Assembly: GCA_963663385.2 (NCBI GenBank)
Contig: CAXXXD010000002.1
Coordinates: 864,001 to 928,000, forward strand
DNA length: 64,000 nucleotides
Origin: Oceanispirochaeta sp.
Lineage (GTDB): Bacteria; Spirochaetota; Spirochaetia; DSM-2461
Reading direction: 5' to 3'
The notes under the pieces were generated by a model. That model saw nothing but the letters and a program-made list of their open reading frames with translations, was not told where the DNA came from and made no database searches. Positions 15,463-22,440 of this stretch are shown here, one piece after another; position 1 is the first letter of the stretch; each line of letters opens with the position of its first letter. The translations under genes were made by a program, and so were the position numbers.

Positions 15463-16248
15463 TTATCTTTTCGCGCCGGCCAATGCTTTATTCAGCAGGG
15501 TAAAGAAAGGATCCAGACCGATGGACGCGCCGGAAATGGCATCGGGCTGAACTGCACTCTGGGAGCTGAGAACCCTGTCTTCCACCGCACGGGCCTGTTC
15601 CCACCAGGGGGCCATGGCGCCGCCGTTTGCAACCATACCGTACTCACCGTCCATGGATCTCTGTGCCTTGCTTTTTCCACCGTCTTCGGCCAGACCATCC
15701 CAGTTGACTGCAACGATATAACCGGAAGTCACTGTTACATCAACAGCGTATTTGTAGCCGTGGTCAAAGGCGGCTTCTTCCGCATGATAGGTTCCGTCCT
15801 TGTAGGGGCCGTAACCGACTGGACCGGCTGCGAGAGCTTTTTTCACAAGGTCGACGAAGGGGAGGACCTTGATTGTCGCTCCCGAAACAGCATCGGTGTG
15901 TCCATCGGAATCGCTAATGGTTATAGCCGAAATATCCTGTTTTTTTATCAGTTCCTTTTCTACAGCCTCTGCCTGTTTCCACCAGGGCGCCATGGCTCCG
16001 CCTTTGGCTTCCATGCCGTACTGACCGTTGCGGGAAAGAGTCTCTTTTGTGTGACCGGCATTAATATTGGAGCCGTTCCATGACACATCTTTTATTTTAC
16101 CGTTTTTCACAACAATTGTGACATTATATTTCCAGCCTGATTTGGGAAACTGATCTTCCTGAGCAAAGTACACCCCATCCCGGTAGGAAGCGGCAGATAC
16201 TGAAAAAGCCATTATCATCATGGCAAAAAGCAATACAGTTTTTTTCAT
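15463..16248 (-). CDS. Secreted protein with two tandem FMN-binding (flavinylation) domains
   Basis: Signal peptide; internal duplication (Y[RK]DG.Y...YGM...GGAMAPWW.QA.AVE) ending in DAVSGAT and DAISGAS. Confidence 0.88.
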   Translation of the reverse strand: MKKTVLLFAMMIMAFSVSAASYRDGVYFAQEDQFPKSGWKYNVTIVVKNGKIKDVSWNGSNINAGHTKETLSRNGQYGMEAKGGAMAPWWKQAEAVEKELIKKQDISAITISDSDGHTDAVSGATIKVLPFVDLVKKALAAGPVGYGPYKDGTYHAEEAAFDHGYKYAVDVTVTSGYIVAVNWDGLAEDGGKSKAQRSMDGEYGMVANGGAMAPWWEQARAVEDRVLSSQSAVQPDAISGASIGLDPFFTLLNKALAGAKR

Positions 16249-16383: not shown

Positions 16384-17058
16384 TCATTTTCTTTCGGGCT
16401 GCTGTAGTATCCCGTTCAGGAACTCCAGCTCGAAGGCTACACTTCTCCGGAATGCTGTGGACATCTTCTTCTGCATCCGGATTTCTGAACGGTTAGCCAG
16501 AGTTTCGACCAACCGGATAAACCGGTTCGTATAGGAACGGAATATTTCTCCGGCATAAGCGTCCATCCAGTCCTGATAGGGATTTCCTTGAGTACTCAGT
16601 CTGAGGGTCTCCAGTCCCGCCTGCAGGTAGACCCAGTAACAGGGCAGAAGGGCCGCCGCAGACTCTTCGTAACTATTCTTTCGGGCGGTCTGAACCAGAA
16701 AACTACCATACTCCCTGCAGGCCCTGTTGGGGGGAATCCTTTCTGAGGCTGTTTTTTCCCTGCCAAGCTGTTTGAGAAGATCCGTTTCGAACTCGATGCC
16801 TTTGGTCGCCAGTTCATGAAAAAAGGATTTTTCACCGGGGGAGGGCGCTTTTTCCGCCGTAAGGGCCAGAGCTCTGGCATCCTCTTTAAGGTAGTGTGTA
16901 TCCTGTTCCAGATAGCAGATAAAAGCACGGCGGGAGAGTGACCCCTCTGCCATCTGCCTGTGAAAGGGGTGATGAACAATTCCTGAATATATGTCTTCAC
17001 ACTCTTTCATCAGGGAAGCCGTATAGGAGCCGCAGGGGGGAATATCCGTATTTTCCAT
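16384..17058 (-). CDS. tenA: Thiaminase II / aminopyrimidine aminohydrolase
   Basis: HPF, YLEQDTHYL, LLPCYWVY (catalytic Cys) and NPYQDWMDAY. Start set at ATG 17058. Confidence 0.88.
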   Translation of the reverse strand: MENTDIPPCGSYTASLMKECEDIYSGIVHHPFHRQMAEGSLSRRAFICYLEQDTHYLKEDARALALTAEKAPSPGEKSFFHELATKGIEFETDLLKQLGREKTASERIPPNRACREYGSFLVQTARKNSYEESAAALLPCYWVYLQAGLETLRLSTQGNPYQDWMDAYAGEIFRSYTNRFIRLVETLANRSEIRMQKKMSTAFRRSVAFELEFLNGILQQPERK

Positions 17059-17066
17059 TTTATTTC

Positions 17067-18512
17067 CTATCGCCATATCTCATGAAAATGATGAACCGGC
17101 CCATGCCCGTGTCCAATGGTGTAGCGGCTCCCTTTCTCAATGGCGCCGGTCAGATAACTTTTGGCAGATCGAACAGCCTCTCCTGTAGGAACACCCCGGG
17201 CAAGGTAGGAGGCTACCGCAGAGGACAGGGTACAGCCTGTCCCGTGGGTATTTTTTGTATCCAGCCTGTCCGAGGGAAGCTCCGTAAAACACCCGCTCTC
17301 TGTATCATAATAACAGTCCACAAGTTCCCTTTCCCTGAGGTGTCCGGCTTTAAGCAGTACCGCAGGACAGCCCAGATCCGTTAAATCCCGGGCCGCCTGA
17401 GGGAGATCGCATTGACAGGGGAGGGACCGGCCCAGAAGGATTTCCGCCTCGGGAATATTGGGCGTGATGAGGCTGGCCTTGGGGATCAGAACTTCTTTCA
17501 GGGTTTCAACAGCATCCGGCTGCAGCAGGAGGTCCCCCGAGGTGGCAACCATAACGGGGTCGAGTACGATCTTTTTGATCCCGTATTCCTCCAGAAGTTT
17601 AGTAATCGAAAGGATCAGCTCGGAGGAGTGGAGCATCCCGATTTTTACCGCATCCGTGCCTATGTCATCCAGAACCGATCTGATCTGCGCTTCCAGTATC
17701 TCCAGTGGGATCGGGTGAATTCCCCGGACCCCCATGGTATTCTGCGCCGTTACAGCTGTAATGGCGGACATCCCGTAGCAGCCAAGGGCGGAGAACGTCT
17801 TAAGATCCGCCTGAATCCCGGCGCCTCCGCTGCTGTCCGAACCGGCAATGGACAATACCCGGCTGTACCTTCTCCCTGTTTTGGCGGAAGATACGGTTTC
17901 CGCCAGTTCGGAACTTGCCAGACAGGGATCATCGGCAGAACAGATGGCCGAAACAACTGCTACGCCATCTGCTCCCGCACGGATTATCTCTCCGGCATTT
18001 TCCTTATGGATCCCTCCGATCCCGACGGAGGGAAAACGGGACCGGCTGACAATCTCTCTGACTCCCGAGAGCCCCAGTCCCCTGGTGAGTTCCTTTTTTG
18101 TCGGAGTAACATGGACGGGGCTTATCCCGATATAGTCAATATCCAGGGCGTTCGCTTTCTCCGCATCCTCTCCCGACTCTACCGAGAGGCCTATAATGGC
18201 ATCCGGCCCCATCAGGCGGCGGATTTCTTCCACGGGCATATCCCTTTGACCGACGTGGACACCGTCCGCACCGGATGCCAGGGCAATATCCATTCTGTCG
18301 TTGATTATCAGGGGGATTCCCCTGGGAGCAAGGAGGGCTTTCAGTTCCCTGGCCAGCTGCAGAAAATCCTGTGTGGAGGCGTCCTTCTCCCTCAGCTGAA
18401 CCATGGAAACACCGCCTTCGGCGGCCTGCCGGACAATTTCTGTTATCTGCCGGTTCCGGGAGAGGCTGCGGTCCGTTACCAGATAGAGGCTCGGATCAAA
18501 TGATTTTCTCAT
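17067..18512 (-). CDS. thiE/thiD: Bifunctional thiamine-phosphate synthase (N-terminal ThiE) / HMP(-P) kinase (C-terminal ThiD)
   Basis: VQLREK, INDR and HVGQ.D, followed by [21 protein letters not shown] and HGTGCT. Confidence 0.95.
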
Positions 18513-19303
18513 ACTCCGGCTCTCAGTCTGCTGCTGATATCAGAGTCGCTTAAGTTGTAAAGGGCATCCAGAAAGGACAGCTGCAGACTCCCCGGTCCCT
18601 CAGCTCTCTCTGCGGCTATTTCTCCGGCGATACCCATGACAGCCATGGCGCTGAAGGCTCCGTACAGGGGATCAGGATCTACTGCGGCAAAGGCGCCTGT
18701 CAGGGCGCTGGCGGTACAGCCCATCCCGGTAACACGGGCCATCAGGGGAGAACCGTTACGGATGCTCAGGGTTTCGTTTCCATTTGTTATGTAATCCGTC
18801 TCACCGCTTATACAGATGGTACACCCCCATTCCAGGGCCAGTTCCTTTGCTGTCTCCAGGGCTTCAGAAGAAGCGGCGGAGCTGTCAACGCCCCTGGTTT
18901 TTACCGCTTCATTCCGCAGGGACAGAATTTCCGAGGCATTCCCCCGGATGATAGCGGGAGCCGCTGTTTCTACAAGTTCCCTGACGGTCTGAGTCCGGAA
19001 GGGGGTGGTGCCGGCACCCACCGGGTCCAGGACGATAGGCTTTTTCAATTTCGCCGCACAGGCCATGGCTTTTTTCATAGCCTGTATCCATGAAAAGCTC
19101 AGTGTTCCGATATTGATAACCAGGGAGGAATCTATTCTGACAAAATCCTCCATCTCCTCGGGAGCATGGGCCATAACGGGAGAAGCTCCGATGGCAAGAA
19201 GGGCATTGGCCGTATTATTCATAACCACATAATTGGTGATATTGTGCACCAGGGGAGCTGACTCCCTGACATTTTTTATATTTTCCAGAACCTTATTTTT
19301 CAT
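18509..19303 (-). CDS. thiM: Hydroxyethylthiazole kinase
   Basis: HNITNYV, NIGT, LDPVG, RGNASEI and TGMGC. Start set at ATG 19303. Confidence 0.95.
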
Positions 19304-20009
19304 TCTTTCCACCCTTCTTCTGTGCACAGATCGCCACGTAGTCCCCTTTCCCGTATCCCGGAATCGGTTCCTCTATCTCCCTGTTGGAGTGGGTCGGGTG
19401 GCAGGTCAGGGTCTGGGCATAGCTGAGATTTTCAAATCCGGCTTCTTCGAGGATTTCCACCTTTTCTCCGGTGGTCCGCCAGTTTGCCTCTTTAACGAAT
19501 TCAATAGGGTAGGGATCGGGGGGAAGGGCACCCTCCAGAAGAGGGTGGTCCCAGGTCCCGAGGGTTTTTGCCAGGTTGTAGATAAGGCCGTAGGAACTCT
19601 CTTTGGGGACATCAAGCATAACGACTCTTCCCCCCTCCTTCAGAGCACAGAAGGTTTTCCGGGCGGCTTTTTTAAGGTCTGTTATATAGCCGGGAGATCC
19701 GTTGAACAGGATGGTATCCCACTCGTTCCGGCCGAAATCAGCCTGCTCTGCCGTATCGGTCCTGACAGTCATGCCTCTTTTACGGGCAATCTCCGCCATC
19801 CCTTCGGACGGCTCTATCCCGTGAGAGATCTCAATGTTGTAATCCTGTTTCAGGATGGATTCAAACAGGCCGCTGCCGCATCCCACAGAGAGCGTCTTAC
19901 CGCAGTCCTCAAGAAAATGGGCCGCCAGTCTGACCTCGGATTCGAGCATGTTCCGGTTGTTCAGAAACCAGCTGTCATACTCACTTGCATGTTCATCGAA
20001 TGTTGCCAT
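19293..20009 (-). CDS. Class I SAM-dependent methyltransferase
   Basis: [12 protein letters not shown], motif I LSVGCGSG and GIEPS; GAGG RBS; overlaps the thiM start. Confidence 0.9.
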
Positions 20010-20097
20010 AAATTGTTCCTCACTTCTTCGAAGTGAAATACAGCAGAAAAGAAAGGGAATTTGAAACGGGTAAATTTCAAGATAGGTATTTCTTCAC

Positions 20098-20177
20098 TCT
20101 GTTTTCCTTCGTTGTCATTAAACATTTCAGGTTCAAGGGTTTGTTCTCAGCCGACATCAGTCAGCACCCCTAACAGG
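20098..20177 (-). ncRNA. TPP riboswitch (THI element) with a variant P5 region
   Basis: Minus strand CUGUU-AGGGGUGC...GGCUGAGA...ACCCUU-GAACCUGA...UAAUG...CGAAGGA-AAACAG; P1 is CUGUU/AACAG; lies upstream of thiamine genes. Confidence 0.9.
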
Positions 20178-20587
20178 TTTGTATTTACCCTATTCCATTC
20201 GGATTTTTTCGTCAAGAAGGGGTATGAAAACAGAGCGGTAACAGATCTATCAATTGTTTTGTTCCGATTTTTCCTGATTTTTCCAGGCCATCAGACTTTA
20301 TGGGGAATGAAAGATAGGCTTTTATTAAATAAGAACAAATTGTTATTTATTTTTCAGATTCTGTTAATTTCTCAAGATTATCAGGTGGTGTATCTTATAT
20401 TCCAGATTAAAAATCTTTTAAAATCTGTGGGACTGGATTTTTTCTTCTTAATGTTATCAAGTTTGTTTCAGTCTAAAAAATCCGGTCTCATTTTTGACTT
20501 TTTCTTTCAGAATACTTTAATGTATATCAGTTTTTAATATTCTGGTATGCCTGAATATGCTCTGCCATTATTTATATTGGGAAACTG

Positions 20588-22342
20588 TTAATGCGACACC
20601 TTGTGAAACTCTACTTCCTGAACGCCCCGTACGGAATTGATCAGGTATATTTTTTCCATTCTGTCCAGATCCTTCAGAAGCAGAACCTTTTCCAGAATCT
20701 TTCCGGATTCTATCAGCTCCCTTCTGTAAGTTCCTGCCAGGAGTCCGCATTTCACAGGGGGGGTATAGTCCCGGCCGTCCAGTCTCACCACAACATTGCC
20801 AATGCAGGACTCGGTGATTTCACCCTTTTCATTCCACAGCAGAACATCATCGAATCCGGGACTGAGCTCCCTGATCTCATCGTAAATATGTCTGCTGGTG
20901 GTCTTGTGAAAGAAGAAAGGATTGGCCGAATCAATCGCTTTCCGGCCCGGGGTCAGTGTCCAGAGCGCTTTGCCCCGGGGCTCTGTTTCTTCGCAGATCA
21001 TCTCTCCCTGTTTCTCCAGCAGGAGGCGAATCTTTCTTACCCTTTTTTCAAACTCGTCGGAACGGCGCACTAATAGATTCAATACCCTGTCCCGGGAAAA
21101 GGGGTAGCCGAAGTATTCAGCGGATTCCTCCAACCTGTCCAGGTGCTTTTCCAGAAGAAAATAACCCTCTTCCGGATCCCATTTCAGCGATTCCAGAAGG
21201 GCGAAATCGGGAGCTCTTCGGTTCAGTATCTTTGCTTTGGTCATGGTTTCGTCAAATTCCTCGCTGGTCGTAGAATCCCAGACGATTCCGCCTCCTGTCC
21301 CGTATTCGCCCTGTTTCCGTTTCTTATCAAAAACGGCTGTGCGGATAGCCACGTTAAACTGGGCTTTCCGTCCCGGGGCCATATAACCGATGGATCCTGT
21401 ATAGACCCCCCGGGGAGATGTTTCCAGTTCCTTTATAATCTTCATTGTACTGCATTTGGGGGCTCCTGTTATGGAGGAACAGGGAAAGAGCGCTTTAAAA
21501 ATGTCTGTAAGAGATCTTTCTGTTTCGGCTTCGACGGTCGAAGTCATCTGCCAGAGGGTGGGGTATTTTTCCAGAGAAAAAAGGGAGGAGACCTTAACAC
21601 TCCCCGTTTGGGCAATACGGCCCAGGTCATTCCGGATCATGTCCACGATCATCCTGTTTTCAGCCCTGTTTTTTTCGGAATGAAAGAGCCAATCCGCCTG
21701 TTCTCTGTCTTCTGCCGGAAAACGTCCCCTGGGTGCGGTGCCCTTCATGGGGCGGGTTATTATTTCCCTGCCCTCCAATGTAAAAAACAGTTCGGGAGAC
21801 GCTGAGCAGACCGTTACATCCTCCGTTTCAATATAGGCTCCGTACAAGGCGTTCTGAGCTTCCTGAATCTGCCTGAAAAACCGGAAAGAGTCTCCTCCGT
21901 AAGGTGTACGAAGCCTGTAGGTATAGTTGACCTGGTAGGTGTCGCCCCGGCGGATCCTCTCCTTTACAGCTTTAATCCCGCCGGTATATTCGGTTTTATC
22001 CAGAACCGGTTCCCACATCAGTAATGCATCTTCCGGGGGGGCCGGTTTTAAATCATCTCCGGGAAGGATATCCGGTTCATCATATAAGCCGAACCAGAGC
22101 AGAGGGAGGGAACTGTCATCCCTGACAGTAAGGGCTTCATCAAAAGCCGGCGCGGCTTCGTATGTTATGAACCCGGCGGCATGATACCTCTGGTTTTCCA
22201 CCTTGTTACAGATCTTCTCAAGAACCGGTATTACCTGATCTTTGTTCCGGGCAATATAAACCTGCCGGGGGGAGTGGAAGTCAAGCCATTGATTATTCAA
22301 ACTATCGTGCAGTATAACCCTGTCTGATTTTCCGGTTTTCAT
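20588..22342 (-). CDS. pabB: Fused aminodeoxychorismate synthase component I / ADC lyase (PabB-PabC)
   Basis: TYQVN, SPELF, PMKGT and MIVDMIRNDLG, then a class IV PLP domain (HKTT, GEITE, GLLAGTYR). Start set at ATG 22342 after GGAG. Confidence 0.9.
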   Translation of the reverse strand: MKTGKSDRVILHDSLNNQWLDFHSPRQVYIARNKDQVIPVLEKICNKVENQRYHAAGFITYEAAPAFDEALTVRDDSSLPLLWFGLYDEPDILPGDDLKPAPPEDALLMWEPVLDKTEYTGGIKAVKERIRRGDTYQVNYTYRLRTPYGGDSFRFFRQIQEAQNALYGAYIETEDVTVCSASPELFFTLEGREIITRPMKGTAPRGRFPAEDREQADWLFHSEKNRAENRMIVDMIRNDLGRIAQTGSVKVSSLFSLEKYPTLWQMTSTVEAETERSLTDIFKALFPCSSITGAPKCSTMKIIKELETSPRGVYTGSIGYMAPGRKAQFNVAIRTAVFDKKRKQGEYGTGGGIVWDSTTSEEFDETMTKAKILNRRAPDFALLESLKWDPEEGYFLLEKHLDRLEESAEYFGYPFSRDRVLNLLVRRSDEFEKRVRKIRLLLEKQGEMICEETEPRGKALWTLTPGRKAIDSANPFFFHKTTSRHIYDEIRELSPGFDDVLLWNEKGEITESCIGNVVVRLDGRDYTPPVKCGLLAGTYRRELIESGKILEKVLLLKDLDRMEKIYLINSVRGVQEVEFHKVSH

Positions 22343-22440
22343 ATTGCTCCCTTGTATCCTGCCGTTTCTTTTACATGAAAAGGGGGGCATCATAACATTT
22401 TTTTATGATTTTTATAAGGAGCCCGGGCGATAATCGGGGC

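What the first reader, a model, noticed from the sequence alone, without database searches (positions are those of the whole stretch)
16384..20177. TPP-riboswitch-controlled SAM methyltransferase heading a salvage-only thiamine operon
Seen: the riboswitch is followed first by a class I methyltransferase whose stop overlaps the thiM start, then thiM, thiE-thiD and tenA. No thiC, thiG or transporter gene is in the operon. Established: ThiM, ThiD, ThiE and TenA salvage thiazole and pyrimidine fragments, and no class I methyltransferase step is part of canonical thiamine salvage. Inference: the enzyme acts on a thiamine precursor, degradation product or antivitamin, for example repairing a demethylated fragment or inactivating a toxic analogue. 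That would be an uncharacterised branch of B1 metabolism.
Basis: partly seen in the sequence, partly recalled or inferred. Interest (0 to 1): 0.8.

Follow-up and report, generated by a model that had tools for sequence, protein, structure and literature searches.

The report
Unknown methyltransferase wired into thiamine operons
A vitamin-B1-sensing RNA switch here controls a salvage operon whose first gene is an uncharacterised methyltransferase that almost always travels with thiamine genes in other microbes, pointing to a step of B1 metabolism that nobody has described.

Summary
On the minus strand a TPP riboswitch (20181-20087, RF00059 58.3 bits) is followed by four overlapping genes: a 238-aa class I SAM methyltransferase (MT), thiM, a thiE-thiD fusion and tenA. 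The genome has no thiC, thiG or Thi4, so it can only salvage.

The MT belongs to a tight orthologous group (57-91% identity) with no characterised relative; the nearest structure is the unannotated TM1293 (1VLM).

In 120 loci (67 clusters at 90% identity), 66 of 67 clusters have a TPP riboswitch or thi genes beside the MT. All 34 clusters with at least 4 kb downstream carry tenA in the same locus.

In an even sample of Bacteroidales, every MT-positive genome has TenA (16 of 16), against 8 of 285 MT-negative genomes.

A sister clade (about 40% identity, same signature motifs) is fused to ThiD or to Thi4.

Distant homologues (27-33% identity) show no thi link.

The operon is a GC-rich island, and the MT is missing from 40 of 40 relatives, so it probably arrived by transfer.

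Best reading: a dedicated thiamine-pathway methyltransferase, most likely acting on an HMP-type pyrimidine together with TenA and ThiD. The substrate is unknown, and seven literature searches found no description.

The parts
20087..20181 (-). TPP riboswitch aptamer (THI element)
   Evidence: RF00059, 58.3 bits against a gathering score of 54.3, full model 1-105. It aligns with 25 riboswitches found in front of orthologous MT genes.
20010..20086 (-). 77-nt leader between the aptamer and the MT start (presumed expression platform, with GAGG 9 nt before the ATG)
   Evidence: Sequence read. The fold of 19990-20200 gives -52 kcal/mol, z -2.73. No terminator-like site was found. How the switch acts is inferred, not shown.
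19293..20009 (-). Class I SAM-dependent methyltransferase of an uncharacterised, thiamine-linked orthologous group
   Evidence: Pfam Methyltransf_23/11/25/12 above their cut-offs. No NCBIfam model reaches its cut-off. AF2 model pLDDT 90.9. Nearest structure 1VLM, Z 29.9. 2219 homologues, with the 120 listed at 62-91% identity.
18509..19303 (-). thiM, hydroxyethylthiazole kinase. The ATG at 19303 overlaps the MT stop by 11 nt
   Evidence: TIGR00694, 295.8 bits against a cut-off of 256.4. Overlap read.
17067..18512 (-). thiE-thiD fusion (thiamine-phosphate synthase plus HMP/HMP-P kinase). The only ThiE and the only strong ThiD in the genome
   Evidence: TIGR00693 215.2 bits and TIGR00097 325.8 bits. 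Genome-wide copy counts.
16384..17076 (-). tenA, aminopyrimidine aminohydrolase (thiaminase II) of the Cys-containing type
   Evidence: PF03070, 120.7 bits. TIGR04306 scores 104.6, below its cut-off of 130. The LLPCYW and YLEQD motifs align with solved B. subtilis TenA chains.

Best explanation
The operon is this genome's only way to assemble thiamine from scavenged pyrimidine (HMP, amino-HMP) and thiazole, and TPP shuts it off through the riboswitch.

Its first gene encodes a SAM-dependent small-molecule methyltransferase that is a dedicated accessory of thiamine metabolism. It most likely works in the pyrimidine branch next to TenA and ThiD, methylating an HMP-type compound: a breakdown product, an adduct or a look-alike taken up with real precursors.

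Two concrete versions, both inferred:
(a) Methylation turns a poor leaving group on the C5-methylene (a thioether, thiol or amine adduct of HMP) into a cationic one, so that TenA can hydrolyse it to HMP. TenA's known substrates, thiamine and amino-HMP, already carry cationic leaving groups.
(b) Methylation caps a toxic pyrimidine analogue so that ThiD and ThiE cannot build it into a false cofactor.

Shown: gene order, riboswitch, overlapping reading frames, fold, conserved SAM motifs, conserved linkage, co-occurrence and fusions. Inferred: that it methylates a small molecule, which branch it serves, and the substrate.
For: Co-regulation:
- The riboswitch is followed by four overlapping ORFs with no terminator between them.

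Linkage:
- 120 loci collapse to 67 clusters at 90% MT identity.
- A riboswitch lies upstream on the same strand in 53 of 67 clusters; a riboswitch or thi gene is present in 66 of 67.
- Among the 57 clusters with at least 900 nt downstream, the next gene is thiM in 29, tenA in 25, thiD in 1 and nothing recognised in 2.
- Among the 34 clusters with at least 4 kb downstream, TenA is in the locus in 34, ThiD in 29 and ThiM in only 13.
- The linkage survives four different operon layouts.

Co-occurrence in 301 evenly drawn Bacteroidales genomes:
- MT in 16, TenA in 24. All 16 MT-positive genomes have TenA, against 8 of 285 MT-negative genomes.
- Leaving out the seed genome, which was chosen because it has the MT, the figures are 15 of 15 against 8 of 285.
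- TenA lies within about 4.5 kb on the same contig in 15 of the 16.
- The MT occurs without thiM in 3 of 5 genomes checked.

Fusions:
- ThiD-MT proteins of about 488 aa, whose MT domain is 40-41% identical to this MT.
- 107 of the 120 listed relatives of that domain carry PF08543.
- One MT-TenA fusion, P0122.
- The fused domains share the group's signature motifs (PYPxxF, QTLxxHPxY, GDY), which the TM1293-like proteins lack.

The TenA partners keep the catalytic Cys motif. The SAM motifs are invariant across 32 orthologues.
Against: - No biochemical or expression data exist; no RNA run was found.
- 12 of the 120 listed fusion relatives are Thi4-MT (thiazole synthase), and thiM is the commonest immediate neighbour, so a thiazole-branch or whole-thiamine substrate is not excluded.
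- The search looked only at proteins of 268-854 aa, so it cannot say what share of that clade is fused.
- Eight Bacteroidales genomes carry TenA in a thi salvage operon with no MT (5 of them as thiM-thiE-tenA-thiD), 6 of them with the riboswitch. TenA therefore does not need the MT.
- Whole operons move by transfer, and related genomes are not independent, so the co-occurrence counts overstate the evidence.
- The MT-TenA fusion is a single protein on one 4.3-kb contig.
- Canonical thiamine chemistry needs no SAM-derived methyl group (established knowledge).
Confidence: 0.5

Rival explanations
1. The methyltransferase serves the thiazole branch. It modifies hydroxyethylthiazole, carboxythiazole (cHET) or a thiazole look-alike before or after ThiM acts.
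For: The MT stop overlaps the thiM start in the window. thiM is the next gene in 29 of 57 clusters. Twelve listed relatives are fused to a full-length Thi4 thiazole synthase. In Alistipes-type operons the MT follows thiG-thiH-thiF.
Against: The MT occurs in genomes with no thiM (G041, G043, G045) and in two-gene MT-tenA modules. ThiM is in the locus in only 13 of 34 long clusters, against TenA in 34 of 34. ThiD fusions far outnumber Thi4 fusions among those listed, 107 to 12.
Confidence: 0.15
2. It acts on thiamine itself, on its phosphates or on damaged thiamine, as a general repair or housekeeping enzyme of the pathway rather than of one branch.
For: It is linked to genes of both branches and fused to enzymes of both (ThiD and Thi4). 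It is far more conserved than its partners: MT 59-66% identical to Bacteroidales copies, ThiM 51-59%, ThiE 48-62%. TenA is 20-44% identical across 14 partner loci from all three phyla. That would fit one fixed, universal substrate.
Against: The exclusive co-occurrence with TenA in Bacteroidales is not predicted by a general role, because most thiamine-making Bacteroidales lack the MT: it is in 16 of 301 genomes overall and in only 3 of the 100 with thiC. No methylated thiamine derivative is known (recalled knowledge).
Confidence: 0.15
3. It is a BcmC-like enzyme that makes a methoxy-pyrimidine antivitamin of the bacimethrin type when thiamine is scarce.
For: There is a published precedent. Bacimethrin genes, including a SAM methyltransferase, a ThiD-type kinase and a thiaminase, sit in a putatively TPP-riboswitch-controlled operon with thiM, thiD and thiE in Paenibacillus (PMC5627462, passages read). 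The ThiD-MT fusions recall the kinase-methyltransferase pair of that cluster.
Against: None of the 128 neighbouring ORFs or the 25 further operon ORFs is a thymidylate-synthase-like or nucleoside-deoxyribosyltransferase-like protein, and no thiaminase I is present. The operon's ThiE is the only one in the genome and its ThiD the only strong one, so an antivitamin would go into the cell's own cofactor pool. Sequence similarity to BcmC could not be tested because no BcmC sequence could be reached.
Confidence: 0.07
4. The protein does not methylate a thiamine-related small molecule. It is either a SAM-binding regulatory or protein-modifying partner of thiamine enzymes, or a passenger gene carried along with a mobile operon.
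For: The operon moves horizontally. It is a GC island. The MT is absent from 40 of 40 relatives. Its thiM is 32-35% identical to the thiM of the four same-genus genomes that have one (4 of 10 searched) but 51-59% identical to Bacteroidales thiM. MT-less versions of the operon exist.
Against: A passenger would not keep 57-91% identity, keep its place in four operon layouts in three phyla, track TenA 16 of 16, and become fused to ThiD or Thi4 in a sister clade. Distant homologues outside the group have no thi link (0 of 11 loci), which marks the linkage as specific to this group.
Confidence: 0.08

Closest known systems
TM1293 of Thermotoga maritima (PDB 1VLM), a structural-genomics 'SAM-dependent methyltransferase, possible histamine N-methyltransferase'
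   Same: Same fold over nearly the whole length: VIA Z 29.9, rmsd 1.6 A, 206 residues aligned, 36% identity. Foldseek TM-scores 0.81 and 0.93. phmmer E 1.6e-23.
   Different: It has no known function. TM1293-like proteins lack the roughly 18-residue insertion carrying WDHPLL...PYPIEF and the QTLTxHP motif. In Spirochaetota they sit beside neither a riboswitch nor thi genes (0 of 11 loci, each with only 1.5 kb of flank or less where the contig ends).
Bacimethrin biosynthesis cluster (BcmA-E) with its methyltransferase BcmC
   Same: It is the only published case found of a SAM methyltransferase in a TPP-riboswitch-controlled operon together with thiM, thiD, thiE and a thiaminase (PMC5627462, passages).
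   Different: The defining partners (thymidylate-synthase-like CMP hydroxymethylase, glycosidase, thiaminase I) are absent from every locus examined. The thiaminase here is TenA (type II). Similarity to BcmC was not tested.
Canonical TenA/ThiD pyrimidine salvage (with YlmB in Bacillus) and ThiM thiazole salvage
   Same: thiM, thiE-thiD and tenA here are ordinary members of their families, under an ordinary TPP riboswitch. TenA keeps the catalytic Cys motif.
   Different: No methyltransferase belongs to the described pathway (established knowledge). No amidohydrolase matched among the 128 neighbouring ORFs or the 25 further operon ORFs that were scanned against Pfam.
ThiD-methyltransferase and Thi4-methyltransferase fusion proteins, annotated only as HMP kinase or thiazole synthase
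   Same: Their C-terminal domain is 40-41% identical to this MT and shares its signature motifs. They tie the same domain to thiamine enzymes.
   Different: They are fused rather than free-standing and are named from other phyla, including Thermoplasmatota, Acidobacteriota and Cloacimonadota, as the sources label them. Their genomic context could not be fetched. Their MT domain is closer to 1VLM (E 2.5e-40).

Membership tests
TPP riboswitch (RF00059) | Covariance-model score at or above Rfam's gathering score over the full aptamer | tested here: met
   58.3 bits against 54.3, model positions 1-105, E 7.6e-09.
TPP riboswitch (RF00059) | Lies in the 5' leader, on the same strand, of thiamine biosynthesis or transport genes | tested here: met
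   It ends 77 nt upstream of the first gene of the thi operon.
TPP riboswitch (RF00059) | Binds TPP and represses the downstream genes | not testable with these tools
   No RNA run holds this stretch. No terminator-like platform was found.
Class I (Rossmann-fold) SAM-dependent methyltransferase | Pfam methyltransferase domain above its cut-off, with the GxGxG SAM-binding motif | tested here: met
   Methyltransf_23 43.4 bits (cut-off 27) and Methyltransf_11 36 bits (cut-off 21.2). VGCGSG, the acidic E66 and E88 are invariant in 32 orthologues.
Class I (Rossmann-fold) SAM-dependent methyltransferase | Seven-stranded methyltransferase fold | tested here: met
   AF2 model pLDDT 90.9. 1VLM at Z 29.9, and many methyltransferases at Z 16-22.
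Class I (Rossmann-fold) SAM-dependent methyltransferase | Transfers a methyl group from SAM | not testable with these tools
   Needs an enzyme assay.
Bacimethrin cluster / BcmC | Clustered with a CMP-hydroxymethylase (thymidylate-synthase-like), a glycosidase and thiaminase I | tested here: not met
   None among 128 neighbouring ORFs of 24 loci or 25 further operon ORFs.
Bacimethrin cluster / BcmC | Sequence homology to BcmC | not tested
   No BcmC sequence could be reached. The paper describing it is not held.
BioC, UbiE/MenG, Tam and MetW (named methyltransferase equivalogs) | NCBIfam equivalog score above the curated cut-off | tested here: not met
   BioC 24.3 against 184.95; MenG/UbiE 24.2 against 158.35; Tam 23.1 against 297; MetW 15.9 against 189.5.
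TenA, aminopyrimidine aminohydrolase (Cys type) | TENA/THI-4 domain plus the catalytic Cys and Asp/Tyr motifs | tested here: met
   PF03070 120.7 bits. LLPCYW and YLEQD...Y align with solved TenA chains. Cys, Gln-Asp and Tyr are invariant in 15 MT-linked TenAs. The residue roles are recalled knowledge.
TenA, aminopyrimidine aminohydrolase (Cys type) | NCBIfam equivalog TIGR04306 above its cut-off | tested here: not met
   104.6 bits against a cut-off of 130.
ThiM / ThiE / ThiD | NCBIfam equivalog domain scores above their cut-offs | tested here: met
   TIGR00694 295.8 against 256.4; TIGR00693 215.2 against 145.1; TIGR00097 325.8 against 204.95.

The most novel reading that the evidence does not exclude
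Thiamine metabolism contains an unrecognised SAM-dependent step, carried out by one methyltransferase family. The family is free-standing behind TPP riboswitches in gut and sediment Bacteroidales, some Spirochaetia and Ignatzschineriaceae, and fused to ThiD or Thi4 in many other anaerobic bacteria and archaea. In this reading the enzyme methyl-activates pyrimidine adducts that are otherwise dead ends, so that TenA can release HMP. That would open a new pool of 'hidden' vitamin B1 precursors to organisms that cannot make B1.
Probability: 0.2. Interest if true: 0.9.

Novelty: new variant of a known kind. Interest (0 to 1): 0.72.

Why it matters
No methylation step is part of textbook thiamine synthesis or salvage. 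Yet this enzyme is held next to thiamine genes by operon structure, by the TPP riboswitch, by strict co-occurrence with TenA and by gene fusion. These are the classic marks of a missing pathway member.

It occurs in abundant human-gut Alistipes-type operons and in organisms that depend on scavenged precursors. Its substrate would therefore say which B1-related compounds are actually traded in anaerobic communities, or how cells keep false precursors out of their cofactor pool.

The question can be tested directly with a purified 238-aa enzyme and a small panel of compounds.

Tried and rejected
- **MT-TenA complex.** A prediction with alignments A1 and A3 gave no answer (score 0.00). It counts neither for nor against binding.
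- **Expression.** No RNA holder is listed for window 18400-20250, so co-transcription could not be checked with reads.
- **Earlier findings of this scan.** A look-up by sequence returned nothing.
- **ESM Atlas.** It gave only generic methyltransferase cluster names.
- **Structure searches.** Apart from 1VLM (Z 29.9) and 2GS9 (Z 22.0), no match rises above the generic methyltransferase background of Z 16-20.
- **Fourth operon gene.** The FMN-binding lipoprotein downstream of tenA is not homologous to the ORFs that follow tenA in the two Spirochaetia MAG loci. The operon ends at tenA.
- **Other recurrent partners.** A Pfam scan of 25 unexplained ORFs found only TenI/ThiE-like proteins and unrelated genes.
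- **thiC link.** thiC is present in 3 of 16 MT-positive and 97 of 285 MT-negative Bacteroidales genomes. This is a weak trend and I claim nothing from it.
- **Fused forms in Bacteroidota.** None turned up in a sample of 401 genomes; only 2 had the MT at all, one of them the seed.
- **BcmC.** Its paper, PMC4004229, is not held, and a search for 'BcmC' found nothing.
- **Literature.** Searches found no description of this family or of ThiD-MT fusions. Subscription journals are not covered.
I rejected it as unlikely: C-methylation of pyrimidine C2 or thiazole C4 is not class I methyltransferase chemistry. This is inference from general enzymology.
Full report
**What is in the window**

Rfam finds one RNA family in the 64-kb window: a TPP riboswitch at 20181..20087 on the minus strand (58.3 bits, gathering score 54.3). 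Four minus-strand ORFs start 77 nt downstream and run into one another:
- a 238-aa protein at 20009..19293;
- thiM, whose probable ATG at 19303 lies inside the last codons of the first gene (an 11-nt overlap), ending at 18509;
- a thiE-thiD fusion at 18512..17067 (4-nt overlap);
- tenA at 17076..16384 (10-nt overlap).

The three thi genes score above the curated cut-offs of their NCBIfam or Pfam models. The first gene matches only generic class I methyltransferase domains, and no named NCBIfam family comes near its cut-off. A simple scan finds no terminator-like site on the minus strand inside the operon.

**The genome around it**

The genome is 5.3 Mb and 98% complete.
- It has no ThiC, no real ThiG and no full-length Thi4.
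- This operon holds its only ThiE and its only strong ThiD.
- A thiamine pyrophosphokinase is present. ThiL matches stay below the cut-off.
- A second TPP riboswitch precedes an ABC solute-binding protein.

**The operon looks acquired**

- Its GC content is 52-57%, against 43-48% in the flanks.
- The methyltransferase (MT) was not found at E<=1e-30 in any of 40 relatives: 10 of the same genus, 14 of the same family and 16 of the same class.
- In an even sample of 301 genomes of its phylum, only this genome has an orthologue.
- Its thiM is 32-35% identical to the thiM of the four same-genus genomes that have one (4 of 10 searched), but 51-59% identical to Bacteroidales thiM.
- In a maximum-likelihood tree of 68 MT sequences, the window groups with two Spirochaetia MAGs (support 100/99) among Bacteroidota sequences. 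The tree is unrooted, so it does not show the direction of transfer.

**The protein itself**

- 2219 homologues were found; the 120 listed are 62-91% identical over nearly the full length.
- An alignment of 32 orthologues from three phyla has 65% mean column identity, with the SAM-binding motifs invariant.
- The AlphaFold model is confident (pLDDT 90.9).
- Its only close structural relative is the uncharacterised TM1293 (1VLM; Z 29.9, 36% identity), followed by the equally uncharacterised TT1324. Everything else is generic methyltransferase background.

Homology therefore gives no function.

**Context in other genomes**

I gathered 120 loci:
- 24 from species genomes;
- 16 from an even sample of 301 Bacteroidales genomes;
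- 80 from metagenomes, which are the best 80 of 498 confirmed hits, many of them redundant.

Riboswitches were called with Rfam and with a model built from those hits. Neighbours were named by Pfam and then by BLAST against those Pfam-named references.

Collapsed to 67 clusters at 90% MT identity, the counts are as follows:

| Feature | Count |
|---|---|
| Riboswitch upstream on the same strand | 53 of 67 |
| Riboswitch or thi gene in the locus | 66 of 67 (the exception is a 1.3-kb contig) |
| Next gene, among the 57 clusters with at least 900 nt downstream | thiM 29, tenA 25, thiD 1, nothing 2 |
| In the locus, among the 34 clusters with at least 4 kb downstream | TenA 34, ThiD 29, ThiM 13 |

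Four layouts recur:
- riboswitch-MT-thiM-thiE-(thiL)-thiD-tenA, the layout in this window;
- an Alistipes-type operon, riboswitch-thiE-thiG-thiH-thiF-MT-tenA-thiD;
- riboswitch-MT-tenA(-thiD-HAD);
- a bare MT-tenA pair without a riboswitch in Wohlfahrtiimonas and Ignatzschineria.

Of the 14 clusters without a detected riboswitch, 4 are this last type, 3 follow a release-factor gene, and most of the rest have too little upstream sequence.

**Co-occurrence**

In the Bacteroidales sample the MT is present in 16 of 301 genomes and TenA in 24 of 301.
- All 16 MT-positive genomes have TenA, in 15 of them within about 4.5 kb on the same contig.
- Only 8 of 285 MT-negative genomes have TenA.
- The seed genome was chosen because it carries the MT. 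Without it the figures are 15 of 15 and 8 of 285.
- Related genomes are not independent, so I attach no probability to these counts.

All eight TenA-positive, MT-negative genomes carry TenA inside a thi salvage operon with no MT. Five have the order thiM-thiE-tenA-thiD; the other three are variants (in one, TenA was located only; one has a thiE-tenA fusion; one lacks thiM). Six of the eight have the riboswitch directly before thiM. The MT is thus an optional gene placed between switch and thiM, and TenA can do without it.

thiM is missing from 3 of 5 MT-carrying genomes checked. thiC is present in 3 of 16 MT-positive and 97 of 285 MT-negative genomes.

**Fusions**

A search of 1.8 billion representatives gave 35 hits at E<=1e-30. 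Among them:
- P0122 (408 aa), an MT-TenA fusion. It is a single protein on one 4.3-kb contig, so it is weak evidence.
- P0135 and P0136 (488 and 482 aa), which are ThiD-MT.

Searching with the MT part of P0135 among proteins of 268-854 aa gave 134 hits at E<=1e-20. Of the 120 listed, 107 carry the HMP-kinase domain, 12 carry a full-length Thi4 thiazole synthase, and 1 carries neither. Their sources name bacterial and archaeal phyla. Because of the length window, free-standing members of that clade could not appear, so the share that is fused is unknown.

The fused domains are 40-41% identical to the window's MT. They share its signature motifs, which TM1293-like proteins lack.

Conversely, 11 loci of distant homologues (27-33% identity) in other Spirochaetota show no riboswitch and no thi gene within the 1.5 kb or less of flank available. 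The thiamine link belongs to this subfamily, not to the wider fold family.

**Interpretation**

That the enzyme belongs to thiamine metabolism is, in my judgement, about 90% likely. Which compound it methylates is not shown.

The strict tie to TenA, the frequent MT-tenA-thiD trio, the independence from thiM and the predominance of ThiD fusions point to the pyrimidine branch. The Thi4 fusions and the overlap with thiM keep the thiazole branch, and thiamine itself, in play.

TenA here and in the partner loci keeps the catalytic Cys motif, so it is presumably a real aminopyrimidine hydrolase. I propose, as inference only, one of two roles:
- methyl-activation of poor leaving groups on HMP adducts, so that TenA can hydrolyse them;
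- methyl-capping of pyrimidine look-alikes, so that ThiD and ThiE do not use them.

**Comparison with what is known**

The one published precedent I found is the bacimethrin cluster: a SAM methyltransferase in an operon with thi genes that the authors describe as apparently controlled by a TPP riboswitch (PMC5627462, passages). Its defining partners are absent here. This operon also supplies the cell's own ThiE and ThiD. I could not compare sequences with BcmC.

Seven full-text searches found no description of this family or of the fusions. That library lacks most subscription journals, so earlier mention elsewhere cannot be excluded.

**Verdict**

The family is an uncharacterised, strongly thiamine-linked methyltransferase. 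The mechanism remains open.

Noticed in passing
window 20588-22393 (-): A 601-aa fusion of aminodeoxychorismate synthase component I (Chorismate_bind) with a class IV aminotransferase domain (PabB-PabC type) lies directly upstream of the riboswitch on the same strand.
   Followed up: no
window 15463-16248 (-): A 261-aa protein with a signal-peptide-like start, an FMN_bind domain match (PF04205) and two matched stretches to the PplA-like model (far below its cut-off) follows tenA. It is not homologous to the ORFs that follow tenA in the two Spirochaetia MAG loci, so it is not part of the operon.
   Followed up: partly
G000:C4:857461-857559 (L001): The genome's only other TPP riboswitch (68.9 bits) precedes an ABC-type solute-binding protein, probably a thiamine or precursor importer.
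   Followed up: partly
L012-L015, L017, L026 (Wohlfahrtiimonas): The MT-tenA pair has no riboswitch here. It starts at or just after the end of a MocR/PdxR-type regulator gene (GntR plus aminotransferase domains) that is divergent from pdxS, and in four of the six loci it is followed by bioD-bioA. Genes for three vitamins sit side by side.
   Followed up: no
L020, L021 (records titled Bacteroides sp. MAGs): Their MT sequences fall inside the Ignatzschineriaceae clade (support 98/93), and their TenA is of the gammaproteobacterial type. The contigs may be mis-binned or recently transferred.
   Followed up: no
L089:8258-8656: A 132-aa BRO-N domain ORF (a phage-associated family) sits between thiL and thiD inside one metagenomic thi operon.
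   Followed up: no
L132 (G175:C55) and rows for G322 and G299: TenA lies in open frames of 425-501 aa in some Bacteroidales genomes. In L132 this is a ThiE-TenA fusion.
   Followed up: no
P0213, P0246, P0241, P0231 (distant MT homologues): More distant members of the fold family are fused to rhodanese, C_GCAxxG_C_C, glyoxalase or Nitro_FeMo-Co domains. None of these is thiamine-related.
   Followed up: no
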